The notes beneath the pieces are model-generated. The model had not been told where the DNA came from and made no database searches. It saw nothing but the letters and a program-made list of their open reading frames with translations. A stretch of 40,238 nucleotides of DNA from Candidatus Bathyarchaeota archaeon (GTDB lineage: Archaea; Thermoproteota; Bathyarchaeia; TCS64): the NCBI GenBank assembly GCA_043826455.1, contig JBDRQD010000025.1, forward strand, positions 1 to 40,238, in the 5' to 3' direction. Position numbers and translations under genes: made by a program. Shown piece after piece: positions 916 to 36,646 of the stretch. How positions within the stretch are numbered: the first letter of the stretch is position 1; each line of letters starts with the position of its first letter.

Positions 916-1395
916 GGAATTAGGGAGATAGAGGTCTTTGTCGTAGGTAACGGTGGCTCCTCCGCTACAGCCTCCCACTTTACATCCGACCTGAGAAACG
1001 TGGGCATAGTCGCACACTGCCTGACCGATAATACAGCTAGGCTCACAGCCGTCATAAACGACTACGGCTGGAACGATTGCTATTCCAAGATATTCACCGA
1101 AATCTGCCTCATGAACTACCCCATCGGCATCATATTCAGCGTCCACGGTGGCTCAGGGCGAATCGTAGATGGTCAACAGTGGAGCACCAACCTCGTGAAC
1201 TTCGCCAAGGCTATCAAAGAACGTAACGGCACAGTCATATCTATCGTAGGAGGCGATGGTGGGCAACTCAAACACATATCCGACCTTTGTATCATCGTTC
1301 CCCACGACCACTACACGGTTGTGGAAGGTGTACACAGCGTCATAGCCCACGTGCTAACCGAACTTGTCTCCACACGGGTCGAGAAACGTGCTTGA
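916..1395 (+). pseudogene. gmhA: SIS-domain phosphoheptose isomerase (GmhA-like), 5'-damaged
   Basis: The frame of ORF 1000..1395 extends upstream as GIREIEVFVVGNGGSSATASHFTSDL (GmhA GNGGS motif) to an in-frame TAA at 913-915, with no standard start before the motif. SVHGGS, GGDGG and VEGVHSVIAH motifs lie downstream. Confidence 0.7.
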
Positions 1396-2122
1396 CACCG
1401 TATCTCTCGGCGACTGCCTAGACCTCATCTACAAACTCCCACACAAGTCTGTTGACCTCATCTTCACCGACCCGCCCTACAACATCTGCACCGACAGAAC
1501 CAAGATGACAGCCGTTCATGGCATTCCCACCTCCAATCAGGACGCTTGGGGCGATGACTTCACCGACAGCTATACTGATGAGGAATACTCAGATTTCATG
1601 TCATCACTCTGCGATGCCTATGACTATGTTCTGAAGGATGACGGCTCCATCATCACCTTTTTCGACAAAAACAAACCGCAGTTCCTATCCCCTTTCTATG
1701 ACCGTTTCACAATAAGGAACACCTTCGCCTTCATCAAGACCAACCCACCCAACCACTTCAGGATGAACAACTACCGTTCGGGCTTCGAGCAGTGTGCATG
1801 GTTCAGCCGAGAAAAGTACAGGATCAACTTCATCTCCCAAAGCGGTATGATCAACGTGTTCTACGGTCAGACGAATTACAGAGTCGCTGGTCACCCCACC
1901 GAGAAGCTCCCGTGGATGGTGGAGCCTCTCATCCTACGCCACACCAACGAGGGCGACACCGTGCTAGACCCCATGTGCGGCTCAGGCACGATGCTCGTCT
2001 ACGCCAAGAAGCACAGGAGGCAGTACATAGGCTTCGACATCGAACCCAAGTACGTTGACATGAGCCTCCAACGCCTAGCCGATACCCATGTGACCCGCGA
2101 CATCCGAGGGGCGTTCAGGTAA
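1388..2122 (+). CDS. Site-specific DNA methyltransferase (N4-C/N6-A, beta class)
   Basis: GDCL, TDPPY (motif IV), HPTEK and VLDPMCGSGT (motif I) in beta order. GTG at 1388 overlaps the gmhA-like stop. Confidence 0.9.
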   Translation: MLDTVSLGDCLDLIYKLPHKSVDLIFTDPPYNICTDRTKMTAVHGIPTSNQDAWGDDFTDSYTDEEYSDFMSSLCDAYDYVLKDDGSIITFFDKNKPQFLSPFYDRFTIRNTFAFIKTNPPNHFRMNNYRSGFEQCAWFSREKYRINFISQSGMINVFYGQTNYRVAGHPTEKLPWMVEPLILRHTNEGDTVLDPMCGSGTMLVYAKKHRRQYIGFDIEPKYVDMSLQRLADTHVTRDIRGAFR

Positions 2123-2315
2123 GTTTCCACTACTTTTAATACTACATCTAGCCACACAACAGTAAATTAAAACTAACCGTGCCATAAAATTGCCTACATT
2201 GGGAAACTAGGCGTTGTTCTTTCCCATTTTGAATGTGTGCCTTTGGTGGCTAGCTAGATGCATCGCCTAAAAACACTTACTAATCACTGATTATGGTGGT
2301 GTTAACAAATGGAGT

Positions 2316-2450
2316 TCACTGCTTTTTCCGTCTTTTCTGTATCGCCCTATCCATAGCGTCTCTTCCCACCTCAACCGAACCCGTGTAACTCCTAGCCGTC
2401 TCCATGCTCTCCCAACTGAACCAGTCGGCAACCGTGTTCAAGTCGAACCC
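2316..2450 (-). pseudogene. C-terminal remnant of a tyrosine recombinase
   Basis: Manual translation GFDLNTVADWFSWESMETARSYTGSVEVGRDAMDRAIQKRRKKQ* resembles box II (W..W......Y) of archaeal integrases. It is preceded by an in-frame TAG. Confidence 0.55.
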
Positions 2451-2596
2451 CTACCAAGGATCCACAGATGACCCTATCGAAGAGGGCAGCCTGAATTCAT
2501 GAAAACAAAGCCACTAGGAGACCAGCAGACAACACGGCACCAGGTCCAGTTCAAATATATTAAATAGGCTCATCAAAGGGAATATCTTGAAGGAAT

Positions 2597-2848
2597 ATGA
2601 GTGGCTTACAATTTGAGATGTCCCCCGTGGATGAAAAACCCGGCAGGAGGTACCGTAAGAGGAGCAAGTATGACCCCATCGTTGACAGGTTCCTCGAGGG
2701 AGGCAGCGGCATCGTCTTGGTTGAGGTCGAGGGCAAGGAAGCCAACTACGTTAGAACCCAGCTGAAGAAGCGGATAGACGCCCGCATGCTCACAGACGAG
2801 ATCCATGTCTCGGTAGCCAGCGGTAAGGTGTACCTGGAGAAGCTGTAA
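2597..2848 (+). CDS. Small basic putative DNA-binding protein
   Basis: 83 aa with RRYRKRSKYDPIVDRFL. Upstream ATATATTAAA TATA-like box and GAAGGA SD-like site. Confidence 0.7.
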   Translation: MSGLQFEMSPVDEKPGRRYRKRSKYDPIVDRFLEGGSGIVLVEVEGKEANYVRTQLKKRIDARMLTDEIHVSVASGKVYLEKL

Positions 2849-2884
2849 AGCTGGTTTGAGTAGAGCAGGCGCCTCCAACTCCTG

Positions 2885-3165
2885 TGCCATTCAATTTGAG
2901 GGGGCAGTTGAATGTGTTTTCCGAGGGTACCTTGGGTTTGGGTTCCAAACGGGTAGCCGATGGAAAACGAGCCCTGCGTGAGGCGTCGCCAAATGCCTTG
3001 TGTTTAATTTCCTTGAGGGTTCCTGATCTGAAACCCTCAAGCATCCTTACAACATTCCAACACATGGCAGTATCAGATCACTGGATGAGTCTAGGGTCTA
3101 GGCTCTTTAACGCTGGGACCACGTCTCCTCGAGGTGAGGCGTAGGTCTAACCCGTGGACTAGACC
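2885..3165. ncRNA. Candidate structured non-coding element (several hairpins plus a possible pseudoknot)
   Basis: Stems 2888-2896/2906-2914, 2916-2968 (nested), 3012-3021/3032-3041 (perfect 10 bp), 3121-3142 and 3144-3165. Loop TGATCTGA is complementary to TCAGATCA at 3073-3080. Confidence 0.35.
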
Positions 3166-3369
3166 ATGTAGCTGTCGAGAACAGGGAGCAACCTATGGCG
3201 TTTCAGGTGCATAATCTTGGCTGCTTTAGCTAACACAACACGCCATGAATTGATTATCATTAAAACGCAAAGCATATGTTCAATTGTAAATATTCCTGCA
3301 TGAAAACCTCACTTGCTAAAGACATTCTAATATGTTACACAGAATTATACGAGAAAACAGAGTGAGCTT

Positions 3370-4011
3370 TTAGCGATCCTTTTTCATAGCCACAACAAGT
3401 AATGCTACAGCAATAAGAATAGATACAATTGGATATCCAGAAATATTATTCGAAGAAGCGGTATTCTCCAACTGTGCATTTAATTCATTGTAACTTTGAG
3501 ATAACTCGTTGTAATCTTTTAAAAGACTATCATAATCCCCTTGAAGAGAATCATATTTAACAAGCAGATCATTATACTTTTGTTCATAATCAATCATAAC
3601 AACTGGTTCATCCACTTGAAAAACGAGGGAGGTACTAAATGACCGTGCTTCTTTATGCAACCTAGGTTGCTCAACAAATATATTATATGAAATCTCAATA
3701 TAGACGGTATGTTCCCCAGGTGTTCTGTACTTTGATTGTGTGGGGATTTTAAAATTATAGTCAAAACCAGCACCAGGTTCATCCCCTTTAGGTATGTTTT
3801 GTTTAAACCCTTGCTCTAGCACATAGTCATCCCAGTAAACGTATAATGACGCATCTGTCATGATTCCACGTATTTTAAGGAAAATATTGGCGTCTTCTTC
3901 TCCGTTATGGGGAATAAGAACCGCTTCTATTTCTGATCCGTGTACATTAACAATATAGAATTGTGTACAGATTATTATCGAGAGCAAGCATGCGAGATTT
4001 CTTTTTCTCAT
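3370..4011 (-). CDS. Secreted/surface protein with coiled coil and C-terminal sorting-like signal
   Basis: Signal peptide MRKRNLACLLSIII, heptad YxxL repeats, and a C-terminal ISGYP + hydrophobic helix + KKDR (PGF/Loki-CTERM-like). Confidence 0.8.
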   Translation of the reverse strand: MRKRNLACLLSIIICTQFYIVNVHGSEIEAVLIPHNGEEDANIFLKIRGIMTDASLYVYWDDYVLEQGFKQNIPKGDEPGAGFDYNFKIPTQSKYRTPGEHTVYIEISYNIFVEQPRLHKEARSFSTSLVFQVDEPVVMIDYEQKYNDLLVKYDSLQGDYDSLLKDYNELSQSYNELNAQLENTASSNNISGYPIVSILIAVALLVVAMKKDR

Positions 4012-4235
4012 TGTTAGAAATAGTATATCGTTCCATTAATAACTATTTTCAAAAAAAAGTTAAAAGGTATGTGTTTAGCTCGGATTAACAAATGAGAAAT
4101 TTGCACTATTTTCATTTAATTTCAGCTTTCTTTTTCATGGAAATGTCAAAATAAGCATCGTTCAAAAGCTTATTTTATATCCGAAAATTCTTGAGCAAAA
4201 CACGTACGTTAAAAGAGATTGAAGTGCTTGTCTTT

Positions 4236-4436
4236 TTAGGAAAATGCTTCACGCATTTCTTGATATCGTTCTTTTCTTTTGCTTCTTTCAGTCCAGGCGA
4301 TTAGGATCACAGCTATTATGAATAAGATAATTGCTGACGTTGAATCATTTGATCCAAGAGCTAAAAAAGAAGCGCCGATTAACATCATCGCAACTATGGT
4401 GGTACCCATTCTAAAGAAAGTTCTAAGTATCCACAC
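4236..4436 (-). CDS. Small two-TM membrane protein
   Basis: Two hydrophobic helices followed by a basic tail. Confidence 0.55.
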   Translation of the reverse strand: MWILRTFFRMGTTIVAMMLIGASFLALGSNDSTSAIILFIIAVILIAWTERSKRKERYQEMREAFS

Positions 4437-4878
4437 GCATTAACTTTCTTCAATTGTTATTTAAAATTTATTCAAACTGCATGCTGAAATTCAGTTTTAA
4501 CTTTATCAATACGTATTGGATTAGAAATTTGTGGTGGACGGGGGAAAAATCGTTAATGTCTGCTCCTGTACAGTGAGTCTATAGTTTCGTAACACAGGGT
4601 CACCCGCTTAACGTTGTACAGGTGGCCCTTTTAACCAGCGGCCCTATCGCTGCATTACTCGACCCTAATAAATGTTAGATAAGTAACCTTTTAGAAGTAA
4701 AACAGGCCACTAAATACCCCATTTTCCACGCCGTTATATCACAAAAAAAGGAAAAAGTGTGATAAATATATTAAGCGGTCTCAGGGCTGGGATGTCTCAT
4801 ATTTTTGTGTGTATGGGGAGTGGGTGCCACTGAGAGGGTATAGACCTTAGCTGTACAACATATATCAGAGGCTTAACC

Positions 4879-5850
4879 CTAGCTCCCTCTACGCTTCTCC
4901 CTTTTACGCCAGATCCTGCACCTAGATTCCAAGCACTCGTCTTTTTTCATGATCGTTGCACACTTGAAAGGGCGGCGCCCTTCAAGCGCCATCAGCTCCA
5001 ACATGTACCATGCCTCACGTTCATCAAGGTCCTTGACGCCACGTAACATCGCCATTATGCCGTCGGGGTCATGGCCTTTTGCTGTTAACTCGGCCACCGC
5101 AGCCCGCATCATAAAGAGAGACACGCCCTGGGGGTTTTCACCCTTAAGCACAGCATTGATGCAAGGTCTTACCCTCGAAAACATGAGGTGCTTCCCATGC
5201 GAAGCAAGCTCAGGGTTCTCCAATCGCCGGGATGCGGCGTCAACAACGTTTAAACCTAGCCCCGAGGCTCGCTGAGCCCCAGAGAACCCATGTTCAAGTT
5301 CTAGGGGCTCACGTTCAAGGGTCACGGGGGTAACCATCTTGAGGGTTATAGGATGTACAGTGTAAGGTACCATGGTCATTGCGCGGATGTTGCCCAGTGA
5401 TGATCTGTTTAGGGTAGGGTAGTGTGCGCCTTTGATTAGCATAAGCTGAAGCTCATTGTAGAGGGACACCAGATCTTTCTCGGATCCTGCCACTGGTTCT
5501 TTTAGCCAGACGTATACGGTGTAGCCGTTATAGCTGTTGAAGACGGTTATGGCGCCTGCGCCATAGTGTTTTCGCAGAGACTCGTTGAATGCCTGTGTGT
5601 CGCTCCATGCTTGAGGTATCTCGCCCTTGTACCCGAAGTGGAAAAATAGACGGTCAATGGCGCAGACCTCGTTGTTCGTTCCGATGGGGTTCACGCTCAT
5701 AAAGAGCGGAGAGGCTCCTTCTGATATGAGTTGATTTAAATCACCGGGAACGTTGACAAGTCTTTCATATGTTGTTTTTACGCTGCGCATTGGCCCGGGT
5801 GACGCCCATTCAGCGAGGAAAGCTTCAAAATCTGTCACCTGATCTTCCAC
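4879..5850 (-). CDS. Archaeo-eukaryotic primase (AEP)-like protein fused to a PriL-type Cys4 domain, catalytic motifs degenerate
   Basis: IDRLFFHFG / NSYNGYTVYVWL / GNIRAMTMVPYTVHP align by eye to AEP motifs I-III. C-terminal RPCI...FKCATI....CLESRC resembles a PriL Fe-S domain. Overlaps the helicase 3' end. Confidence 0.65.
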   Translation of the reverse strand: MEDQVTDFEAFLAEWASPGPMRSVKTTYERLVNVPGDLNQLISEGASPLFMSVNPIGTNNEVCAIDRLFFHFGYKGEIPQAWSDTQAFNESLRKHYGAGAITVFNSYNGYTVYVWLKEPVAGSEKDLVSLYNELQLMLIKGAHYPTLNRSSLGNIRAMTMVPYTVHPITLKMVTPVTLEREPLELEHGFSGAQRASGLGLNVVDAASRRLENPELASHGKHLMFSRVRPCINAVLKGENPQGVSLFMMRAAVAELTAKGHDPDGIMAMLRGVKDLDEREAWYMLELMALEGRRPFKCATIMKKDECLESRCRIWRKREKRRGS

Positions 5851-8009
5851 CTACCATCGCGAGTGTCCTTGTAGATCAACCCATCTCTCGCCGCTGCTTT
5901 GATTGCGTTCTCCAAAGTTCTCGGGTGCACTTCTCTGAAGGTTTGGGCAAGCTCCTCGTCAGTGGAACCACCCTGAGTTTTCCTGATCCAGTCTACTATC
6001 CGCTCCACAAGCTGGGCACTTGTGGGAGTCTCTGCGTCAGTGTGGGTAGAGACTTCAGATACATTATTAAGGAAATCATCGAAAGCGGTAATTGTTTTTT
6101 CAGCTGCGGAATTTTCACCATCACTAACGCTACTAACGCTATTAACGCTATTTTCAGAGTTTTGTCTAATGCGTGTAATTGTTACTACTCGATTTGTTCC
6201 CGTGTGATTACTTTCGACTTTTATTCCAGCAGCTAGAAGACTGGGCAGATCCTCAGTGAGTCGTCGCATCATCCACTCGGGGCTCTTTGGCCACTTTTTC
6301 TGTTTAATAGAAATACCTAAACTCTGTGCGTGGTCGCATAAAGCGCTATAGAGCAGTGATGGCGGTCCACTCCATTCACTGGTAAAGGAGTTCATGAAAG
6401 ATACAAGAACTCTACTTATGGGTGACGAATCCAGTATCTCCTCGTTCTGATTCTTCACATTCTCCTCATATGCATCTAGGAACCGTTGGTGATCCATCCC
6501 CAAGGCTTCAGTTATCGCGCAGCCCCATCTAGTAAAGTCCGATAATCTGTAAAGCTCGGTTAGTTGGATGGTTAGGTATATATTTCGAGCCTTTACTAAT
6601 GTGTCCAGCATTCCGCCCAATATGAGACCTGCGTCTGCTGAGAACTGCTCAGTTAGTTCTTTCTCCTCTTTTCTCAGGTTGTTCGGTAACAATTCGCAGT
6701 TCAGGATTATTGTCCGGTCAAGCAAATCGCTGCGCTGTGGCACTATGTTGATGCCGTTCAGCCCAACACAGCGCCTGAACCTGTAGATTACGTCGTCGTC
6801 GTCTGTGTACAGCTTTCTTTTTGTGATCCCAGCTCCTGTAACTGCGCGGCATAAAACGTCGCTCGCCCAATTAGACAGAACCGAAACATTGTCGTAGAAA
6901 CAGCAGTAGTGGTGGTTGAGTTGCTGCGCCATTTCCATGTCGTTGCGGGGCATTGCGAGGAGATCCACAGTTGAAGGGTCTACGATTTCTCGGGCAAATT
7001 TAAGGGCGAGACTTTTCCCGCTTCCAGGTGGTCCCCAGATCACCATGTTCGGGTGTTGAATTTCTGGGACGAGAAAACTGATAATGGACACAAGGTACAA
7101 AAGCTGCTGATTTTCATTTTTCAAGTTTACAAAACCCAGAATTGTCCAAGGGTTTCCGCCCTCGATTGGTACGGGAAGTTCTTTTTGGTGACTATACCTA
7201 TAGAATATGGGGTCCTCACGTTTTTCTATTTTCCAGCCTTCTGATGTTACATGTAAGTGCTCCCAGTTATCGTTTGCTAAGTCTATCAAGGTACCGCCTT
7301 GACCATCAGGTGCAACTCTGTTGTACAGAGTATGTGTGGGTCCTTCACGGGCTTTGGCTCTGAGTATGCTTAGCGCTGCGTTGATGGCTTCACTGCTTGG
7401 GATTTTATTTGTTTCAGTGTAGAATTGCATAGCGATCCTATCTTTGACTATGGGCGATTGGAGAGGATAGGTCTTGTATACTTTTGTAGAATCATTGTTA
7501 TTAACTTGAGAAATGCTGTTAATCGCGTTATTACCGTTAGTGGAGATCAAATCAGGATAACAAATATGGGGTACACCATACTGATCTTTAGACAGTTTGC
7601 ACCCCGTATCTTGTACAAGCGCCACTATTTGAGCAGCTTGGGATGTTCGTTCCTCATTTGGTGACGTATCGGGTGTAGCTGGCTGCGTTTTCTCAAGGTA
7701 GTTTGCTAACTCTGCCAATTGCCTCTCCACGAGATGATATTCTAGGTTCAAATTTTCTGCTATACGTTTCGCTGTTATGTTGCCAAAACTTGTGACTGTG
7801 AAGAGTGGTTGTTCAGTACTTGTTTCTGCTTCATCCCCGTCTGTTTCTTCCTTTTTGATGATTTTATATACGATGCCGCCATTTTTTGTAGGGTGTATCC
7901 TATATCCGTCTAAGAGCTGTGGGATTGTTGGAGGGGGGGACCACCCACACTTGGGACACCTGCCGTCTTCCAAAGCTGCGCCACAAGCGGGGCACACGAT
8001 GTCAACCAT
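5835..8009 (-). CDS. Mobile-element P-loop ATPase / replicative helicase-like protein with N-terminal Zn ribbon
   Basis: CPACG..CPKC, Walker A GPPGSGKS, CFYDN (Walker B-like), LCRAVTG, RKLYTD, LNGI and DLLDR. Confidence 0.8.
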   Translation of the reverse strand: MVDIVCPACGAALEDGRCPKCGWSPPPTIPQLLDGYRIHPTKNGGIVYKIIKKEETDGDEAETSTEQPLFTVTSFGNITAKRIAENLNLEYHLVERQLAELANYLEKTQPATPDTSPNEERTSQAAQIVALVQDTGCKLSKDQYGVPHICYPDLISTNGNNAINSISQVNNNDSTKVYKTYPLQSPIVKDRIAMQFYTETNKIPSSEAINAALSILRAKAREGPTHTLYNRVAPDGQGGTLIDLANDNWEHLHVTSEGWKIEKREDPIFYRYSHQKELPVPIEGGNPWTILGFVNLKNENQQLLYLVSIISFLVPEIQHPNMVIWGPPGSGKSLALKFAREIVDPSTVDLLAMPRNDMEMAQQLNHHYCCFYDNVSVLSNWASDVLCRAVTGAGITKRKLYTDDDDVIYRFRRCVGLNGINIVPQRSDLLDRTIILNCELLPNNLRKEEKELTEQFSADAGLILGGMLDTLVKARNIYLTIQLTELYRLSDFTRWGCAITEALGMDHQRFLDAYEENVKNQNEEILDSSPISRVLVSFMNSFTSEWSGPPSLLYSALCDHAQSLGISIKQKKWPKSPEWMMRRLTEDLPSLLAAGIKVESNHTGTNRVVTITRIRQNSENSVNSVSSVSDGENSAAEKTITAFDDFLNNVSEVSTHTDAETPTSAQLVERIVDWIRKTQGGSTDEELAQTFREVHPRTLENAIKAAARDGLIYKDTRDGRWKIR
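6122..6148 (+). repeat. 9-bp-period tandem array (CACTAACGC TACTAACGC TATTAACGC)
   Basis: Seen directly; inverted partner at 7516-7542. Confidence 0.75.
7516..7542 (-). repeat. 9-bp-period tandem array (CACTAACGG TAATAACGC GATTAACAG on the minus strand)
   Basis: Seen directly; imperfect inverted copy of 6122-6148. Confidence 0.65.
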
Positions 8010-8115
8010 GTTTTAAAGCTTCCTCCAGTTTGGTTAGGTGTTTCAGGGCCTCATCCACGACGTTCTCTAGGGGGGCCAGGGTGGTGCTTAGGGCTGCGTA
8101 TTCGTCGCTGGTCAT
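8002..8115 (-). CDS. Small 37-aa amphipathic protein (below ORF-track cutoff)
   Basis: MTSDEYAALSTTLAPLENVVDEALKHLTKLEEALKHG. ATGA overlap with the upstream ORF and overlap with the helicase start. Confidence 0.5.
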   Translation of the reverse strand: MTSDEYAALSTTLAPLENVVDEALKHLTKLEEALKHG

Positions 8116-8441
8116 CGTCGGTTCTCCTCTGTTGTCAGCTGCCGCCTTGGGTTCGGGCTGTTTATTGCTAAAAAGTACGCCCGTGCTATCTCTCGCAGGA
8201 TCAGCCCGTAGGTGTCTGTTCTAGGTAGGGTTAAGCGGATCGTACCATCAGCCCAGATCGTTAGACGGTAACCCCACGATCTCACGGTTGACTCACATAC
8301 TCCGAGAGCTAAGTCTTGGGGGTTGATGGGCTTAAGTGGGTACGTGGTTAATACTCGTTTGTCAGAGTTTAATCCCTGTTCTACGTGCCCAGAGATTTCA
8401 CGTTTGCCGTTGACGCTTATCCACAGCTCGCGCCTAGGCAT
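8112..8441 (-). CDS. Hypothetical protein of the element
   Basis: 109 aa, GGAGGAGG SD upstream, part of a coupled operon. Confidence 0.6.
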   Translation of the reverse strand: MPRRELWISVNGKREISGHVEQGLNSDKRVLTTYPLKPINPQDLALGVCESTVRSWGYRLTIWADGTIRLTLPRTDTYGLILREIARAYFLAINSPNPRRQLTTEENRR

Positions 8442-8590
8442 GCGGTGGCCTCCTCCAGTTTTTTGTTTAACTCTGTCAGGCTGCTGCAGCCCTCGGCGAG
8501 CTTAAGCAAATCCTTAAGGCTGAATGTAACCTCGGTTATCTCAGGTGTCTCCGCCCCAGTGGGCTTTGCGGGCTGCTGAGGGCTAGACAC
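8417..8590 (-). CDS. Small 57-aa hypothetical protein (below ORF-track cutoff)
   Basis: GTG immediately after the RHH stop, preceded by GGAGG. Overlaps the next ORF. Confidence 0.45.
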   Translation of the reverse strand: MSSPQQPAKPTGAETPEITEVTFSLKDLLKLAEGCSSLTELNKKLEEATACLGASCG

Positions 8591-8743
8591 CTAAGATACC
8601 TCCTTCTCAAATAATTGTCTTAAAGCAACTCGGAAAAGCTCGCTCTGGGTCGCATAGTCGCCACGATTCACTGCAGCGTCAATTCGGTTTTTCAGGAGTT
8701 TAGGCACTTTAACGCCAATAAACACCAGTTCTTTTTTTTGCAT
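8591..8743 (-). CDS. Ribbon-helix-helix (CopG/Arc/MetJ) regulator
   Basis: VFIGVKVPKLLKNRIDAAVNRGDYATQSELFRVALRQLF; start set at MQKK. Confidence 0.85.
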   Translation of the reverse strand: MQKKELVFIGVKVPKLLKNRIDAAVNRGDYATQSELFRVALRQLFEKEVS

Positions 8744-8802
8744 GGTTGTATCTAATAAATACAGATTAAATATCATATGTGCTAACTATTAGCAGAGGCA
8801 GT
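8744..8802. promoter_or_regulatory. Divergent promoter/operator region
   Basis: About 60 bp AT-rich gap between divergent regulators, with inverted repeats TGCTAA-cta-TTAGCA and TGTAT-N7-ATACA. Confidence 0.5.
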
Positions 8803-9927
8803 ATGTCAAAAACGAGCCCCGCAGAAGCAAAGAGAAGGGCAACGGTCAAAGTTTTACAACTTTTTAAGAACAACCCCAATCTTAAATGGTCAGAGCTTTG
8901 GGACAAGGCAAAAACCCAAAGAATAACCTATTCGACGTGTAAACGTGTTGTCAAAAGGTCTCTAAAAGCGGGACTCCTGAAACCCAACATTCTTGAGGAT
9001 ATCAACGACCCGGTCTTAACTTTGGTAATCCCGCTTCCTCAGCTCCTCTACCTCAGCGACATAATTGGTTTCTTGACGGGCTGTTTCGAGGATTGGAACA
9101 AGCATCCAGATATTCCAAATGAGAGTTTTATAGGCTCAACGCTGTTCTCAGATGTATCTTGGAATAAGCTGAAGAAATATGTAACCCGTGAAGATGAGAT
9201 GAGGCTCAAGGATGCCCAGATGGCACTTTTCGACATCCGTCAAAGGATGGCGTTGGACACTTTTACCGAATCAGAGAAGAAGTTAATCCTCTCATTTGAG
9301 GAAAAGATAAAGGAACTCGTCAACCAAAAAAATCAATCACGAGAACGAGATAAGACGAATAATTTTATCGCTATGATAGCAGAGCTGCAAGGCTTAGACC
9401 CTGATGAAGAGATCAAGAAGGAGGAGGGATTAATGAAAGAAATGGATACCGCCCTATTGTCGCTGTATCTGTCTGGAGACTCGGATGACTTTTTCTCGTT
9501 CCTCTTTAAAGGCGGCGAAATACCAGATGAGGCTCGGAGGCTGATGGAGTGGCTAGAGGAAAATAGAGGAATTTATCGGGAGTATTCTAGGAAACAGCGG
9601 GAACAGCCAAAAATCCTTTTCTCGGTTGGGGTGGGATTCGAGGGCTATGAAGAGGAGAGTGGGCAGCTGGGGCTGCAGCTTCCCCCTGCTTGGTTTGCTA
9701 GCGAGAAGATGAAGACCATAATCGATGATGTGGAGGCGGATTTAGATAGGTTTGGAAACAGGTCAACTCTCTATCGGTGCGAACTCTGCAAAGCGTGGTT
9801 CGATAATAAGAAAAAGGCTGAGGATCATGTCAGGTTCGACCATGAAAATGAAGAGGTTGGCTCCCATGTGAGTGAGCGTCATAAGTCATTTTACAGTGAA
9901 TTATTGAAGAATCTTATGGCGGTATAA
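8803..9927 (+). CDS. Putative regulator: N-terminal wHTH-like region, C-terminal C2H2 zinc finger
   Basis: LKWSELWDKAKTQRITYSTCKRVVK (HTH-like) and YRCELCKAWFDNKKKAEDHVRFDH (C2H2). Confidence 0.7.
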   Translation: MSKTSPAEAKRRATVKVLQLFKNNPNLKWSELWDKAKTQRITYSTCKRVVKRSLKAGLLKPNILEDINDPVLTLVIPLPQLLYLSDIIGFLTGCFEDWNKHPDIPNESFIGSTLFSDVSWNKLKKYVTREDEMRLKDAQMALFDIRQRMALDTFTESEKKLILSFEEKIKELVNQKNQSRERDKTNNFIAMIAELQGLDPDEEIKKEEGLMKEMDTALLSLYLSGDSDDFFSFLFKGGEIPDEARRLMEWLEENRGIYREYSRKQREQPKILFSVGVGFEGYEEESGQLGLQLPPAWFASEKMKTIIDDVEADLDRFGNRSTLYRCELCKAWFDNKKKAEDHVRFDHENEEVGSHVSERHKSFYSELLKNLMAV

Positions 9928-10034
9928 TATGTGTGCGTGTTTTATTTTTAACGAGCTTCAATATAAAGGGGTTTTGTTTACCCGATTTATTTTAGTTCCT
10001 TATTTTTTTAGCTAAAAATGGGTGTGGAGATGTG

Positions 10035-11219
10035 TTAGTTTTTCTCGGCTAGTCGGGATAATAGTTTTTTGAATTCCTCGAATTGGCTGGTCTGCTCGAT
10101 TTTCATTTGCTCCAGTTGAGCCTTGGTTATAGCGTTTTCCTTTGATAGCTCTGATACTTGTTGGGCTAAGTCATTAAACGCTTGCTCCGTCACGTTGGGG
10201 TTAATGCTCTTGGATCTCTGGTCTTTGCTGGTGGTCTCAATGCTTAACAGGTGCTCATAGTTGGCGTATATCTCCCTGAGCTCATCCAGGGGCTGGTTAA
10301 TGTATGTGCTCTTCGCCTGCCCTATCTCGTGGCTCATGAGGCACTCGATAAGGTCGCCATCCATTTTCCCGGTTAAGCGGCTCCGGAACCCTGATCTTAG
10401 GCTGTGGCTCCGGGCTGGATTATACCCGTTCTCTAGCTCTGTGGGCGCTATGAAGTCCAGCTTAGAAGCGTACGCCCTGAGCCTCGTCTGTATGCTAACC
10501 GGGGTGGCCCTCTCCGCGTCGTTGCCCAGGAGCGTGAACAGGGGGTCTGTGGGCTGTATGTTTTTACGGCTAGCTAAGTATAGGCGTAGGTAATTCACGG
10601 TGTCCGCGCCTACGAAGGTCCTGATCCTTACACTGGTTTTCCTGCGGTACCCCTCAATGGCTAGCGGCAGGGTGCCGGCCTCGTACTCGCGTTGAATGTC
10701 TCCATAGTTTAAGTCAAGTATGTCGCCTATGCTGAGTCCAGATTGAAAGGCGAATAAGATATAGCATTTATCGCGCAGGTACTCGGCTGCCTCCACGTAC
10801 TGCCTGATCTGGTCCAGGGTCCACTCATGTTTCTTGTTCTCCCGCATGGGGCGGTCTGGCGGTGTCTCTATGAAGGCCAGGCTTACCGTGAGCCCGTAGA
10901 ACTTTAGCGCGTTCGTGACTGCGGCCAGGGCTTGAATGGTGGCCTTATTGCTGTAACCGTTTTCGCTATGCCATTTAATGAAGCCGCGGATAAGGTCCTC
11001 GCCGGGTCTCTGCCTCTCATATACGGGGCGGTCCCTGTTGGCCTCCACGTCTTTTTCAATCTGTTTAATTAAACCCACTACACCGTCAGGGTAGTATAAT
11101 CTAAACCGCTTCAAGTTGCTGCGGTAGGACTTTGCGGTGCTCTCTCCCTTGCTTTCAAGGTATTTCTCCTCTGCCTCATCCAGGGTTACTCTGCTGATGT
11201 CTATTAGTTGGGCCGGCAT
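10035..11219 (-). CDS. Tyrosine recombinase/integrase
   Basis: N-terminal core-binding-like region (TAKSYRSNLKRF), SGLSIGD box I, HSLR, LMSH, Tyr in STYI, C-terminal coiled coil. Confidence 0.9.
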   Translation of the reverse strand: MPAQLIDISRVTLDEAEEKYLESKGESTAKSYRSNLKRFRLYYPDGVVGLIKQIEKDVEANRDRPVYERQRPGEDLIRGFIKWHSENGYSNKATIQALAAVTNALKFYGLTVSLAFIETPPDRPMRENKKHEWTLDQIRQYVEAAEYLRDKCYILFAFQSGLSIGDILDLNYGDIQREYEAGTLPLAIEGYRRKTSVRIRTFVGADTVNYLRLYLASRKNIQPTDPLFTLLGNDAERATPVSIQTRLRAYASKLDFIAPTELENGYNPARSHSLRSGFRSRLTGKMDGDLIECLMSHEIGQAKSTYINQPLDELREIYANYEHLLSIETTSKDQRSKSINPNVTEQAFNDLAQQVSELSKENAITKAQLEQMKIEQTSQFEEFKKLLSRLAEKN

Positions 11220-30081: not shown

Positions 30082-30247
30082 GGCACTCCAATATTGGTGT
30101 CGCGGCGGGTGTAAAAGGTTTGAGAGCCACCAAGGCTACCATTAAACAGTCTGAAGCCAATGTCCACTTTCACCCGACTCTAACGGTGCATAGAGATAGG
30201 GTTTAAAAACACCGAGCGGATACACAACTGGAAACCGAGGCGCGCAG

Positions 30248-32308
30248 ATGCTCATCCGAGAAGTCATCCTTGAGAACTTCATGTCCTACAGCTACGCTAG
30301 GGTCCCTCTAAGGAACGGAGTCAACGTGGTCTGCGGGCCCAACGGCGCAGGTAAGTCCAGCCTGCTCCTGGGCATCTGCGTCGCCCTGGGGGACACCTAC
30401 ACAGAGCGGAGCAAGAGGCTGAGCGACCTCATCAGGTGGGACTCCGACGTGGCCAGGGTGACCCTGATGCTGGATAACAGCCCCGGGGAGACTGGGCTCC
30501 GGCCGGTGCCCCAGTTCAACATGGACGAGATAACCCTCAGCAGGACCCTCCGCAAGGACGGCAAGTACGGGTTCCAGCTCAACCAGAGGCACGTGTCCAA
30601 GGCCGACGTCGTTGACCTGCTGAAGGGCTTCGGCTTCGACCCCGACAACATGCTCATCATCATGCACCAGAACATGCCCGGCAGGTTCGCCAACCTGAGC
30701 TCCCAGGAGCGCCTCAAGATGCTGGAGGAGGCCGTGGGCTACGAGAGCTTCCGCCACGACGTGGTGGAGGCCAAGGTGAAGCTGGGAGGTATCCTCAGCG
30801 AGGAGCATAGCCTCAACCAGCTCCTGAACCAGGCCCGGGAGACCCTGGCCTACTGGAGGGAGCAGAACGAGAGGCTGCAAGAGAAGAGGCAGCTCCAGAA
30901 GCGGCAGACCTTCCTACAGCAGGAGATGGCCTGGAGCCGCGTCATGAGTCTGGAGGAGGCAGAGAGGCAGCTCCAGGGCGAGCTGGACGAGACGGAGAGG
31001 GAGCTGGCCCAGGCCGAGGAGGAGATGGAGCTCAACACCAAGAGGGTGGTGGACGCCGAGGAGAGCCTCCGAGCCATGAGGCTCCAGTGGAGCGATCTTA
31101 TAGAGAAGCGGATAGAGTCGGAGAGGACCGTAGGCGTCAGCGAGCACACCATCGCGTCATCCAAGGAGCAGCTGACCCAAGTCGAAAGAATAATCCAGAG
31201 CAGTAGCGAGCAGAGGAGGCGCTTCGAGTCCAGCATAAAAGCCCTTCTCAGCAAGGCCAGAGCCGGGCCCCAGAGGCTGGACGACTACTTCAACCTGTTC
31301 ACGGAGATAGAGGAGACCCAGACCCAGACCTACGAGAGCCTCAGCAACCAGTTCCTGGAGCAGAGGAGCAGCCTCCAGTCCGAGCTCACCCACTACACGG
31401 AGAGGCTGGGGGAGGCCGAGAGGGAGGCGGGGAGGCTGGTGGACGAGATGGAGGCCCTGCGGAAGCGGCTGGACGACACCAACGACCAGTACATCGACAG
31501 CCGCATCCAGCTGGCCCTCCTGAAGGACCGGCGAGGGCGGCTCAAGAGGCGCCTGGAGCAGGCCAGGGCCGAGATGGACCGGGCTCTCCGTGACCTCCGG
31601 GACGCGGAGGCCGAGGCCCTCATCAGGGGCCAACGGATAGAGACGGGTCGCAGCAGCGACGAGATACTCAACGAGATAAGGCGCACAGCGGGCATCCTCA
31701 TGGGCATGGCTGACGTACCCGAGGAGGCCGAGGAGATGTACGACAACTACAACACCACCTTCAGGGAGATAGAGCGGCGCATCCAGGAGGTCCGGGAGAA
31801 CCGGAGGCAGGTGCTTGAGGAGATCGAGGAGCGCAACAAGAAGTGGCTGGAGGTCACCGAGAACCTGCTGGACGAGGTGAACGCCAGGTACCAGAGCCTA
31901 CTCACCAGGCTCCAGGCCACAGGCGAGTGCAGACTGGTCAACAGCCACGACATAGAGGAGGCGGGCCTGGAGATACACGTGGGCTTCAAGGGCGCCGCCC
32001 CCCAGAAGCTCGACCTCTACACCCACAGCGGCGGCGAGCGGAGCACCAGCATCATGGCCTTCCTCTTGGCGCTGCAGCAGAACGTCCTCAGCCCCTTCAG
32101 AGCGGTGGACGAGTTCGACCTCCACATGGACCCCGGGAACAAGGAGTCCGTCAGCGAGTTCATAGTCCAGACCATGGAGGGCTCCACGGGCCAGTACATG
32201 GCCATAACGCCCAGCCAGGTGACGTTCCGCGGCCAGGACGTCCACATAATCATGATTCACAAGACGGAGGACGTTTCCACGCCCAGGATAGTGGAGGACA
32301 AGAAGTGA
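30248..32308 (+). CDS. Short SMC-family ATPase (SMC5/6-like heads)
   Basis: [17 protein letters not shown]-loop MHQN, long coiled coils, signature HSGGERS, and Walker B/D-loop [14 protein letters not shown]. Confidence 0.9.
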
Positions 32309-33078
32309 GCGAGCTGGAGAGCGTCATAAGCCTCTGCCGAATGGTGCAGGCCGGCAAGATAGAGCCCTTCGACATAGACTTCGACTACATCATGGGCGTC
32401 ATCAGGAAGCACTACCCCAACATCAAGGACGTCCGCGAGTTCTGCGTGGACGCGGAGGCCCTCAAGGAGCTCAGCGGGGTCCTGGAGCGCCAGAACAAGT
32501 GGATAGAGCACCAGAGCAGCACCCTCTACAAGGACCCCTTCATGCTCAGCCAGCAGCTCATGCGCATGGACATAGGAGCCATAGCGGAGGCCTTCCTCAA
32601 GTCCTGGCACCCCGTCGTCGAGATCGAACAGGTGTCGGCCCGAACCCTGGCCGAGAGCCTGGGGTACTGGGGCGACCTGATACCCCTGGACGAGAGGTGG
32701 AGGAACCCCGACGTGACCGTCGTCGAGACGGGGACAGCCACCAGAGGCGAGGCCCACGAGCTGGGCCTCATCCCAGAGGAGGGGTTCATGGACCTCATAG
32801 AGGGCTTCTGGAGGGAGCTGGGGGAAAAGACAGGCATCGGTGGCCATTTAGATTACTGGGACTGGGTGGGCGCCGAGACCTACCACGAGACCGTGTACAG
32901 GGCCTACATGACGGTATTCATGGTGGGGTACGGGTACGCCAACGTGGAGTGGGATAGGCTCCTGGAGGAGACGGTCATCATCCACAACCCTGAGCCCCGC
33001 CCAGACCCGGGCCGGGCCAAGGTGAGCCTACCCGTAATGGTGGACTACGAGGAGTGGAGACAATGGCGAAGAGAGTGA
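32305..33078 (+). CDS. Kleisin-like (ScpA-like) protein
   Basis: GTGA overlap with the SMC stop. [12 protein letters not shown] resembles ScpA IDPWDIDI; C-terminal wHTH-like region. Confidence 0.65.
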
Positions 33079-33647
33079 GCAAGGCGGAGCAGGCGTACGC
33101 GCGGAAGGTCAAGGACGCCGTGCACCTGCTGTTCTTCAAGCACCACAAGCTACCCGGCGTCAGGGGCTGGGAGCTGAGGCAGGAGCTGGGCTCAGAGTGG
33201 CAGAGCGTGGTGGAGGTCCTGGACAAGCAGCTGCAGCCCCTGGACCTCCAGGTGACCAGCGTCACGGACGACCCCAGCATAGTGGAGCCCACGGGCAGCC
33301 AGCTAGCCGACGCCAGGTTCTACGTCACCCTCCGCGGCACCGTTGACCAGAAGACCGCCAAGACCATCGGGTGGAGGATAGACGACATCGCGGGTCTGGC
33401 CGTCAGCGTGGCCTACATAATCAGCAAGCAGGGTAAGGCTCCGCGGACGGACGTGGAGCGGGTCCTCCAGGACAAGCTGCCCGGGTGGAGGGTTAAGCTC
33501 AACCTGGACAAGTACATCCAGCAGGGGTACCTGGGCGTGGACGAGCAGGGCGTCATGTATCTGGACTGGAGGAGCCGCGCCGAGGTGGACACCAAGAAGC
33601 TGGTGGACCTGGTGGTGGGCTTCGGGAAGAGGGAGTCCCAGGCCTAG
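33063..33647 (+). CDS. KITE-like (ScpB-like) tandem winged-helix protein
   Basis: Overlaps the kleisin-like stop. [21 protein letters not shown] resembles ScpB LAIIAYxQPITRAEIE; 194 aa. Confidence 0.6.
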
Positions 33648-33988
33648 TCTTCTTCGCCTCCATCGACGGTGATTGGGGGCAGGAGCGTCTGCATCTCCAC
33701 CACCTTCTCCACGACCCTCAGCTCGTTCCCGTCAAGGAAGTAGGCCTCCAGGGCCTCCCTGGGCAGGGACGCCTTCTCGTACCCGTGGAGCCTGAGCACT
33801 ATCTGGGCCCTCTCCAGCTGCCTCTGCAGCACGTCCTCCACCACGGCCACCCATGGTGAAACCCGCCAAGCCGTGTCGGCCCCGAAGAGGTCCAGCCCCC
33901 GCGGGAAGCTGTTCAGGTTGAGAAGGACGTCCTTCCCAGTCGTGAAAATGTATAGGTTTCCTCCATCCACCGCGAAGTGTTTACCCAA
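33644..33988 (-). CDS. Hypothetical protein
   Basis: 114 aa, coupled to the GT2 3' end, GC-rich codon usage like its neighbours. Confidence 0.65.
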   Translation of the reverse strand: MGKHFAVDGGNLYIFTTGKDVLLNLNSFPRGLDLFGADTAWRVSPWVAVVEDVLQRQLERAQIVLRLHGYEKASLPREALEAYFLDGNELRVVEKVVEMQTLLPPITVDGGEED

Positions 33989-35749: not shown

Positions 35750-36646
35750 ATGTCCGCCGAAGAAAGGAAACTAGACGAGCTGGAGGCCCAGGCAGCCGAG
35801 CTGCGGAAGACGCGCAACCAGCTATTTGAGCAGATCAAGAAGGCAAGGGAGGAGAGGGACCGCCTCAACGAGTCGTCCCGGAAGATGAGGGAAGAGGCCC
35901 TGAAGCACCGTGAGGAGAGGGACAGGATCAACACCAAGGTCCAGGAGGTAAAGAAGAGCCTGGGGCCCCTCTTCGAGGAGCTGGACGAGAAGAAGGAGCT
36001 TCTAACGGAGACTGAGAAGACCCTCCGGGAGGAGTACAGGGGCAGGCCCGACAAGTCCAAGGTGGAGAGGGACCTGAACCGCACTGAGTGGGAGATCATG
36101 ACCACCCCCACCAGGGAGATGCTGGACAGGGAGGACGAGATCATTGAGCGCGCCTCCAGGCTCAGGAGGAGCCTCGAAGAGTTCAAGGCCGTGGAGAAGC
36201 ATGAGGGTCGGCGCATGGAATACCGGGCCGAGAAGAAGGCCACGGAGGTGGAGATCAGGGCGCTCAGGGACGAGATCAGGCGGCTGAGCGATCAGAGCCA
36301 AGAGCACCACGAGAAGATGATCATGTTCCACGAGAAGGCGGACGCCGAGAAGAAGAGGGCCGACGAGACCCATGCGCGGTACGTGCAGAAGATTGAGGAG
36401 GTCAACGGCGTCAAGGAGGAGCTTAACGTCATCATGCCCCAGGTAGCCGCCCTCAGAGACGGCCTCAAGGTGGCGGACCTGCGGGGGGCAGAGCACAGGC
36501 GCATGTCGAGCCAGCAGAGGGCCGAGGCCATGAGGCAGGAGGCGCTGAGGAAGATGGAGAACGGGGAGAAGCTCACCTTCGAGGACCTTCGCCTCATATA
36601 CGGGGACGACGAGGACGACGACACCGAGGTCCTTGACCGCTCCTAG
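35750..36646 (+). CDS. Archaeal coiled-coil protein (COG1340-like)
   Basis: All-helical R/E-rich heptads, EWEIMTTP and C-terminal GEKLTFEDL. Confidence 0.8.
   Translation: MSAEERKLDELEAQAAELRKTRNQLFEQIKKAREERDRLNESSRKMREEALKHREERDRINTKVQEVKKSLGPLFEELDEKKELLTETEKTLREEYRGRPDKSKVERDLNRTEWEIMTTPTREMLDREDEIIERASRLRRSLEEFKAVEKHEGRRMEYRAEKKATEVEIRALRDEIRRLSDQSQEHHEKMIMFHEKADAEKKRADETHARYVQKIEEVNGVKEELNVIMPQVAALRDGLKVADLRGAEHRRMSSQQRAEAMRQEALRKMENGEKLTFEDLRLIYGDDEDDDTEVLDRS

What the first reader, a model, noticed from the sequence alone, without database searches (positions are those of the whole stretch)
30248..33647. Minimal SMC5/6-like complex operon: short hingeless SMC + kleisin-like + KITE-like
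The three genes are translationally coupled. The head motifs ([52 protein letters not shown]) resemble eukaryotic Smc5/Smc6 more than canonical Smc or Rad50. The protein is only 686 aa, and the coiled coil is broken by just a short segment ([13 protein letters not shown]), with no room for a globular hinge and no CxxC hook. The partners look like divergent ScpA and ScpB. No JetD nuclease or Mre11 is adjacent. Short archaeal SMC-like proteins (ClsN, Sph) are known, but how a hingeless SMC-kleisin-KITE ring would dimerise and act is not established to my knowledge. This is the best candidate for an under-described system here.
Basis: partly seen in the sequence, partly recalled or inferred. Interest (0 to 1): 0.85.

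Follow-up and report, generated by a model that had tools for sequence, protein, structure and literature searches.

The report
Hingeless archaeal Smc5/6-like mini complex
Three overlapping genes in a Bathyarchaeia archaeon encode an already catalogued archaeal cousin of the eukaryotic Smc5/6 DNA-maintenance machine, but its motor protein has no hinge and is predicted to pair up through a conserved sticky patch on its short arms, which would make it a natural minimal version of such machines.

Summary
Observation confirmed. The operon encodes a 686-aa SMC with Smc5/6-type heads, an Nse4-like kleisin and an Nse1/Nse3-like KITE. Such archaeal 'SMC5/6-related' operons are published (Yoshinaga & Inagaki 2021; van Hooff et al. 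2025 preprint), and this scan has noted them, hinge loss included, in over 20 other genomes. Hinge loss is real: the model shows a bare hairpin, and 126 of 132 complete Thermoproteota and metagenome homologues are 556-684 aa with no CxxC. I found no paper stating this. New here is a candidate hinge substitute. A distal-arm patch (residues 285-304 and 412-427) is predicted to homodimerise (0.56 vs best control 0.00). It sits at a fixed distance from the head in 83-85 of 86 members, while the tip beyond it varies from 14 to 135 residues. In one Bathyarchaeia family an orphan paralog has a Rad50-like zinc-hook arm inserted at the apex, and there two key patch positions lose their hydrophobic residue (0 of 18 rows vs 74-78 of 86). 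Most likely a small closed ring that clamps DNA for genome maintenance; dimer, clamp and function are untested. Asgard members were not examined. New variant of a known kind.

The parts
30202..30209 (+). TATA-like box (TTTAAAAA) about 40 nt before the SMC start; probable promoter
   Evidence: Sequence; archaeal TATA consensus recalled. RNA-library contigs of relatives from two studies begin at 30244/30245, a weak hint only.
30248..32308 (+). Short hingeless Smc5/6-related SMC ATPase, 686 aa
   Evidence: SMC_N E 1.6e-31; best PDB hits Smc5; model and Foldseek top hits in Smc5/6 structures; head trees
30335..30358 (+). Walker A (residues 30-37)
   Evidence: Sequence; motif in 126 of 126 short family members
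30746..31261 (+). Outgoing arm helix, residues 167-338
   Evidence: AlphaFold2
31100..31159 (+). Predicted arm-arm dimer patch, outgoing strand (residues 285-304)
   Evidence: complex prediction; position 289 hydrophobic in 96% of filled rows, but this segment is missing in many members of 600 aa or less
31262..31282 (+). Seven-residue apex turn (339-345) where a hinge would be
   Evidence: AlphaFold2; least conserved and most gapped region of the family
31481..31528 (+). Predicted arm-arm dimer patch, returning strand (residues 412-427); candidate hinge substitute
   Evidence: Best predicted contacts 416/419/420/423/424/427; filled in 86 of 86 members; 144 residues from 416 to G559 in 83 of 86; 416 and 420 not large-hydrophobic in any hook-bearing paralog row
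32024..32038 (+). ABC signature motif (593-597)
   Evidence: Sequence; SGGE[RK] in 126 of 126
32102..32131 (+). Walker B with catalytic glutamate and D-loop (619-628); the H-loop downstream reads ITP as in Smc5
   Evidence: Sequence; alignment to Smc5; ITP in 123 of 126
32305..33078 (+). Nse4-like kleisin, 257 aa: N-terminal helices and C-terminal winged helix (about 160-233)
   Evidence: Profile hits yeast Nse4 E 2.9e-5 and human EID3 5e-4; Nse4_C in 37 of 50 members at E<=0.1; Foldseek top three are chains of Smc5/6 structures that names Nse4 for ranks 1-2; VIA Z 9.2 to Nse4 (rmsd 21.8, 159 aligned) and Z 8.3 to ScpA winged helix (rmsd 2.8, 69 aligned)
33063..33647 (+). Nse1/Nse3(MAGE)-like KITE, 194 aa
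   Evidence: Profile hits a MAGE-domain chain E 0.0032, NSE3 0.12-0.34, NSE1 1.0; SMC_Nse1 in 10 of 71 members, best 4.7e-6; Atlas features 0.92 to a MAGE cluster. Not folded.

Best explanation
The operon encodes a short, hingeless Smc5/6-type ATPase, an Nse4-like kleisin and an Nse1/Nse3-like KITE, which likely assemble into a small closed ring: two ATPases are predicted to pair side by side through a conserved patch on their arms instead of a hinge, the kleisin would bridge the heads, and ATP binding would clamp DNA there, likely for genome maintenance rather than defence. Shown: gene content, intact ATPase motifs, absence of hinge and hook, family-wide conservation. Predicted: the parallel arm-arm dimer at 285-304/412-427, extending to the tip. 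Inferred from yeast Smc5/6: kleisin N-helices on one neck, its winged helix on the other cap, a KITE homodimer on the kleisin middle, DNA held between engaged heads and kleisin. Inferred from context: a housekeeping role at replication or recombination intermediates, usually beside a canonical Smc-ScpAB and Rad50. Effective arm about 117 residues, roughly 17 nm at 0.148 nm per residue (recalled value), against about 47 nm for bacterial Smc (PMC5344682 summary).
For: Subunit identity; heads group with an Smc5 apart from canonical Smc and Rad50 (SH-aLRT 92 and 91, unstarred). No hinge; 126 of 132 unique complete homologues 556-684 aa, none with CxxC; only 112-233 residues between conserved W229 and G461. 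Dimer patch: score 0.56, best of 3 controls 0.00; this mark was reached by 20 of 30 proteins solved as pairs of one chain and 1 of 23 solved as single chains (rough here, own alignment); runs agree in at least 91% of contacts, pLDDT at least 81. Positions 416, 420, 424 hydrophobic in 98%, 93%, 98% of 86 members under 75% identity. G164-280 is 117 residues in 85 of 86 and 416-G559 is 144 in 83 of 86, while the tip spans 14-135. In paralogs with an inserted zinc-hook arm, 416 is Q in 18 of 18 rows and 420 is A/E/S/G, against large hydrophobics in 78 and 74 of 86; positions 415, 425, 436, 439, 443, 450 stay hydrophobic in 14-18 of 18. The yeast DNA clamp is built from heads, necks and Nse1-3-4 (PMC9191643 passages). 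Housekeeping pattern: KITE match in 160 of 201 class genomes and 153 of 301 phylum genomes, nearly always one copy; Lhr helicase near 35 and topoisomerase IB near 14 of 139 loci.
Against: The dimer is a model, not a measurement; coiled coils are readily laid side by side and SMC arm rods are solved, so the pass may be from memory. I could not inspect coordinates to confirm which patch residues face outward. The 18 hook rows are one clade with near-duplicates, a single event; these paralogs have no kleisin or kite beside them, so decay could have another cause; position 423 gains hydrophobicity, and 289 and 424 stay hydrophobic there. The outgoing half of the patch is gapped in most of the 24 members of 600 aa or less. 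Mean top-residue conservation of the patch (0.37) is only slightly above other non-tip arm positions (0.32). Arm-length counts depend on gap placement. The window's own neighbours (dipeptidase, glycosyltransferase) say nothing on function. Kleisin-head and kleisin-KITE binding were not modelled. The tree has one long-branched eukaryotic sequence and only quick-search support.
Confidence: 0.6

Rival explanations
1. Open clamp: the two SMCs meet only at ATP-engaged heads and through the kleisin, the arms stay free, and the conserved patch binds another partner or only zips a transient rod.
For: No hinge or hook; the tip is freely deleted or replaced; the yeast clamp was resolved from heads, necks and Nse1-3-4 alone; a conserved ~230-aa gene of no known family lies upstream on the opposite strand in 52 of 139 loci and could be a partner.
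Against: Self-association of the arm passed the controls with symmetric self-contacts; the patch decays where an alternative dimerisation device was gained.
Confidence: 0.2
2. The ring is a mini-condensin: its main job is chromosome folding by loop extrusion, and it replaces Smc-ScpAB where that is lost.
For: G207 (one contig, 97% complete), G250 (2 contigs, 92%) and G270 (99%) carry the short operon but show no full-length Smc and no ScpB (3 of 5 genomes tested).
Against: Most Bathyarchaeia keep a hinged Smc (174 of 201), so the roles usually differ; arm lengths lie far below those that supported growth in engineered B. subtilis Smc (functional classes named in the passages were 330 aa and longer; shorter classes not seen); many Thermoproteota families have no KITE match.
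Confidence: 0.13
3. A Wadjet- or Lamassu-like defence sensor against plasmids or viruses.
For: Eukaryotic Smc5/6 restricts extrachromosomal DNA, and LmuB is also about 650 aa (PMC10586767 passages).
Against: No JetD in the genome, no effector gene in the operon, catalytic glutamate intact, PADLOC hits are generic ATPase matches and none for ORF2/ORF3, near-core single-copy distribution.
Confidence: 0.06
4. The short SMC is an assembly or annotation artefact of a normal hinged SMC.
For: A few fetched copies are split into two ORFs (L005, L068, L088).
Against: 126 complete short homologues; one contig spans the locus without gaps.
Confidence: 0.01

Closest known systems
Archaeal SMC5/6-related complex ('SMC5/6-related aSMC', Yoshinaga & Inagaki 2021, PMC8665677; SMC + Nse4-related kleisin + Nse1/3-like kite operons, van Hooff et al., 10.1101/2024.01.07.573240)
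   Same: Same three genes in one operon, same host group, heads nearest Smc5/6, usually beside a canonical Smc-ScpAB.
   Different: Nothing in gene content. The passages read treat all SMCs as hinge dimers and do not mention short arms, hinge loss or an arm patch. I could not match my proteins to their accessions.
Eukaryotic Smc5/6-Nse1-Nse3-Nse4 (PDB 7QCD, 7TVE, 8I4V)
   Same: Head motifs including the ITP H-loop, Nse4-type kleisin, KITE subunit.
   Different: One SMC gene and one KITE gene (homodimers inferred), 686 vs about 1,090 aa, no hinge, KITE too short for a RING domain, no Nse2/5/6 in the operon.
Prokaryotic Smc-ScpAB
   Same: One SMC, one kleisin, one kite per operon; the kleisin winged helix matches ScpA (Z 8.3, rmsd 2.8, 69 aligned).
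   Different: TIGR02169 score 206 vs cut-off 729; separate clade; no hinge; relatives carry a separate 1,180-aa hinged Smc.
Rad50, ASRPs (ClsN, Sph) and Lamassu LmuB
   Same: Hingeless coiled-coil ABC ATPases of similar length.
   Different: These mostly use a CxxC zinc hook and have no kleisin or KITE; ORF1 has no CxxC; ASRP score 59 vs cut-off 300; Rad50 is a separate gene here.
RecN (recalled, not tested)
   Same: Short arms, no hinge or hook, dimerises through the coiled-coil tip.
   Different: As recalled, RecN tips pair antiparallel and it has no kleisin or KITE; the interface predicted here is parallel and below the tip.
Engineered B. subtilis Smc(Zh) and Mini-Smc (Burmann et al. 2017, PMC5344682)
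   Same: Shows that a kleisin-KITE SMC can function with its hinge replaced and that arm length is constrained.
   Different: Engineered, with a zinc hook; here the replacement is natural and predicted to be a plain arm patch.

Membership tests
Archaeal SMC5/6-related complex | SMC heads group with eukaryotic Smc5/6 rather than canonical Smc or Rad50 | tested here: met
   (an Smc5 head scores 128 bits on the family profile, 87 on canonical, 35 on Rad50); tree support 91-92, one eukaryotic row, quick search
Archaeal SMC5/6-related complex | Nse4-related kleisin | tested here: met
Archaeal SMC5/6-related complex | Nse1/3-like kite | tested here: met
   each signal modest, structure not predicted
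Archaeal SMC5/6-related complex | Three genes in one operon in TACK archaea | tested here: met
   Window; 111 of 121 loci with room (loci L001-L130 were found by kleisin or kite matches, which inflates this)
Archaeal SMC5/6-related complex | Identity with the published accessions | not testable with these tools
   Accession look-up unavailable; list seen
SMC-kleisin complexes in general | Hinge dimerisation domain | tested here: not met
   Pfam alone is weak: PF06470 missed full-length Smc in G223 and G286
SMC-kleisin complexes in general | Intact ABC ATPase motifs | tested here: met
SMC-kleisin complexes in general | DNA entrapment or loop extrusion | not testable with these tools
   Needs biochemistry
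Canonical Smc-ScpAB | TIGR02169 cut-off, about 1,180 aa, ScpA/ScpB partners | tested here: not met
Rad50 / ASRP (ClsN, Sph) | Central CxxC zinc hook; Mre11 partner for Rad50 | tested here: not met
   0 of 126 short members with CxxC; mre11-rad50 elsewhere; NF045487 59 vs 300 bits
Wadjet (JetABCD) | JetD nuclease | tested here: not met
   No PF09983 match in G000, 97.66% complete

The most novel reading that the evidence does not exclude
Thermoproteota Smc5/6-like complexes form a third way of closing an SMC ring: neither hinge nor zinc hook, but a parallel four-helix arm patch at a fixed distance from the head. The result is a working kleisin-KITE motor with arms about a third of normal length, and in some lineages it is the cell's only SMC-kleisin complex. 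The grafting of a Rad50 hook arm in one family, with decay of the patch, records a natural swap between dimerisation modes.
Probability: 0.45. Interest if true: 0.8.

Novelty: new variant of a known kind. Interest (0 to 1): 0.62.

Why it matters
A review legend states the usual split: SMC proteins with hinge, kleisin and KITE/HAWK, versus Rad50 with hook and Mre11 (PMC10586767). This family has kleisin and KITE but neither hinge nor hook. As three small proteins it is an easy reconstitution target for asking whether the hinge is needed for DNA entrapment, translocation or loop extrusion, and what the archaeal relative of Smc5/6 does; van Hooff et al. name its characterisation as of particular interest. 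The predicted patch gives specific residues to mutate.

Tried and rejected
Sole-SMC idea for this genome: no hinge match and no canonical smc in G000, but 15 of 17 congeners have one, and the gene upstream of smc in G144 runs off the end of G000 contig C57, so this is most likely an assembly gap. Long homologues as hinged Asgard forms: the 990-1,060-aa hits proved to be Bathyarchaeia paralogs with CxxC, not hinges. Long paralog as Rad50 replacement: rejected; no mre11 seen beside it, and those genomes keep separate Rad50-like, canonical Smc and short copies. Single-sequence Pfam/NCBIfam/PADLOC scans of ORF2 gave nothing. The sigma-70 scan found no promoter and is not suited to archaea. The ~230-aa neighbour had no Pfam or PDB sequence match. 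RNA-library contigs of relatives cover 30244-33768, but contigs cannot show strand, level or a single transcript. Careful trees did not finish; quick trees are reported; 6 of 78 rows were dropped by the motif filter. Asgard, Hadarchaeota and euryarchaeal members were not reached. Taxonomy of the distant KITE hits could not be looked up. Literature searches for hinge loss in this family found no statement; the journal version of van Hooff et al. did not appear and the preprint's supplements are closed, so a remark there cannot be excluded.
Full report
Observation. The three ORFs are as described: 686 aa (30248-32308), 257 aa (32305-33078, GTG overlapping the stop) and 194 aa (33063-33647, 16-nt overlap). 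Named homologues and record titles place the host in Bathyarchaeia. Flanks are a dipeptidase gene and, past a small ORF, a glycosyltransferase gene. The mre11-rad50 cluster is on another contig (read by eye) and no JetD was found.

Identity of the subunits. ORF1 matches SMC_N but is far below the cut-offs for canonical Smc, Rad50 and ASRP. Its best PDB matches by sequence are Smc5 and by fold chains of Smc5/6 structures. All ATPase motifs are kept across 126 short relatives (Walker A and signature 126 of 126, Walker B/D-loop pattern 114 of 126, ITP 123 of 126). In quick head-domain trees it groups with its family and one eukaryotic Smc5, apart from canonical Smc and Rad50 (support 92 and 91, unstarred, long branch). 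ORF2 has no single-sequence hit, but its family profile finds yeast Nse4 (E 2.9e-5) and EID3, 37 of 50 members hit Nse4_C at E<=0.1, and its model's best matches are Nse4 and the ScpA winged helix (model pLDDT 69.5). ORF3's profile finds a MAGE-domain chain (E 0.0032) below a designed-repeat hit, with weaker NSE3 and NSE1 hits; 10 of 71 members hit SMC_Nse1; the Atlas links it to MAGE clusters. It was not folded.

Distribution. ORF3 matches 160 of 201 class genomes and, by profile, 153 of 301 phylum genomes. I fetched 76 operon regions chosen across families, 16 genome loci and 75 metagenome loci. Kleisin and kite follow the SMC in 111 of 121 loci with room; many loci were found through those genes, and 9 of the 10 exceptions come from the SMC-found set. 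A hinged Smc is present in 174 of 201 class genomes; its absence from G000 falls at a contig end. Three of five further genomes tested (G207, G250, G270) have the short operon but no full-length Smc or ScpB; the other two have an Smc that PF06470 missed. Family f33 has a hinge match in 43 of 43 genomes and a KITE match in 0 of 43.

The missing hinge. AlphaFold2 gives two long helices joined by a 7-residue turn. Of 132 unique complete homologues, 126 span 556-684 aa with no CxxC. The tip is the least conserved part (top-residue share 0.07-0.15, occupancy 19-55% at 301-380).

What may replace it. Two copies of residues 235-460 were predicted to bind: 0.56 against a best control of 0.00, a mark reached by 20 of 30 proteins solved as pairs of one chain and 1 of 23 solved as single chains (rough here, own alignment), with at least 91% contact agreement and pLDDT at least 81. 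The interface is symmetric, which I read as parallel, best at 416-427 and 285-301, and extends to the tip. It may reflect memory of solved SMC rods. Three further observations fit. First, 412-427 is filled in all 86 members under 75% identity, and 415, 416, 420 and 424 are 93-98% hydrophobic, more than one heptad stripe needs; against this, overall patch conservation is only slightly above other arm positions and the outgoing half is gapped in most of the shortest members. Second, the head-to-patch distance is nearly fixed (117 residues in 85 of 86; 144 in 83 of 86) while the tip ranges from 14 to 135 residues (alignment-dependent). Third, a search for longer relatives found proteins of about 990-1,060 aa with the same heads and an invariant CxxC. 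L142 aligns to the short L158 over 1-313 and 727-1044, so about 410 residues are inserted at the apex; the insert of P0364 is 35% identical without gaps over 391 aa to the arm of a Rad50-like protein of G071. These forms nest among short members (99 and 97 support), match in 6 of 10 genomes of family f23 (the 6 other-family loci fetched were Rad50-like, 5 were not fetched), have no kleisin or kite beside them in the loci read, and coexist with the short copy in G109, G117 and G043. In them 416 is always Q and 420 is never a large hydrophobic residue (0 of 18 rows vs 78 and 74 of 86), while most core positions persist. This is one event with near-duplicate rows.

Mechanism. Most likely a 2:1:2 ring closed by the arm patch, with DNA clamped between engaged heads, kleisin and KITE as in yeast Smc5/6 (PMC9191643). 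The KITE keeps many conserved basic positions. Near-core distribution and recurring neighbours, Lhr helicase in 35, topoisomerase IB in 14 and an unknown ~230-aa gene in 52 of 139 loci (kin not independent), favour genome maintenance over defence. All of this is inference.

Literature, and what I saw. Yoshinaga & Inagaki 2021: passages, supplement search and parts 3-4; it defines SMC5/6-related aSMC, lists 32 Bathyarchaeota accessions, accepted 500-1,500-aa sequences, removed coiled-coil positions from its preliminary alignment, and has no 'hinge' in the supplement text. van Hooff et al. preprint: passages and part 3 of 7; it describes the operons; 'hinge' occurs 3 times, in generic statements; supplements closed. 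Passages only: PMC9389158, PMC11344861, PMC11946384, PMC10586767, PMC9191643, PMC13087482, PMC5344682, 10.1101/2025.03.14.643221 (138). RecN and the per-residue rise are recalled. Ten searches found no statement of hinge loss in this family.

Earlier scan notes. Look-alike stretches occur in 23 genomes and many notes report the hingeless operon; one is marked 'part of it fell', without saying which part. None shown mentions the arm patch or the hook-grafted paralog (one search returned only DPANN canonical Smc with hooks).

Verdict. Known complex, unreported hingeless build, with a testable hinge substitute. New variant of a known kind; interest 0.62.

Noticed in passing
L142 (G117:C109), L144 (G113:C47), L153, L155-L157; P0363-P0372: Orphan paralog in one Bathyarchaeia family: Smc5/6-like heads with a ~410-aa Rad50-like arm and CxxC hook inserted at the apex; no kleisin, kite or mre11 seen beside it.
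   Followed up: yes
L164:5194-5901 and 51 other loci; G000 C21:22142-22849 and C48:115249-115941: Conserved ~230-aa gene of no Pfam or PDB sequence match, always upstream on the opposite strand, directly adjacent in 24 of 52; G000 has two homologues elsewhere.
   Followed up: partly
L089, L071, L096 and others: Snf7/ESCRT-III-like gene near the operon in 13 of 139 loci and a Vps4-like ATPase in 7.
   Followed up: no
G207, G250, G270: Short operon present but no full-length Smc or ScpB found; candidate hosts where it is the only SMC-kleisin complex. Bathyarchaeia family f12 also has KITE 7 of 7 and hinge 0 of 7.
   Followed up: partly
Family f33 (43 genomes): Canonical hinge in 43 of 43, no match to the KITE profile in any.
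   Followed up: no
L147-L152; G071 C3 and C1:85674: A Rad50-like family with the same hook motif as the graft; G071 carries two Rad50-like genes.
   Followed up: partly
window 1000-11219: Cluster that looks like an integrated mobile element: DNA methyltransferase-like (1364-2122), primase-like (4879-5850), helicase/primase-like (5835-8009) and tyrosine-integrase-like (10035-11219) ORFs; read by eye only.
   Followed up: no
window 35750-36646: 298-aa all-coiled-coil protein, DUF7121 (E 2.8e-11), 2.1 kb past the operon; not among the top recurring neighbour clusters listed.
   Followed up: partly
L005, L068, L088, L061, L108: Copies with the SMC split into two ORFs, or with extra DNA between operon genes.
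   Followed up: no
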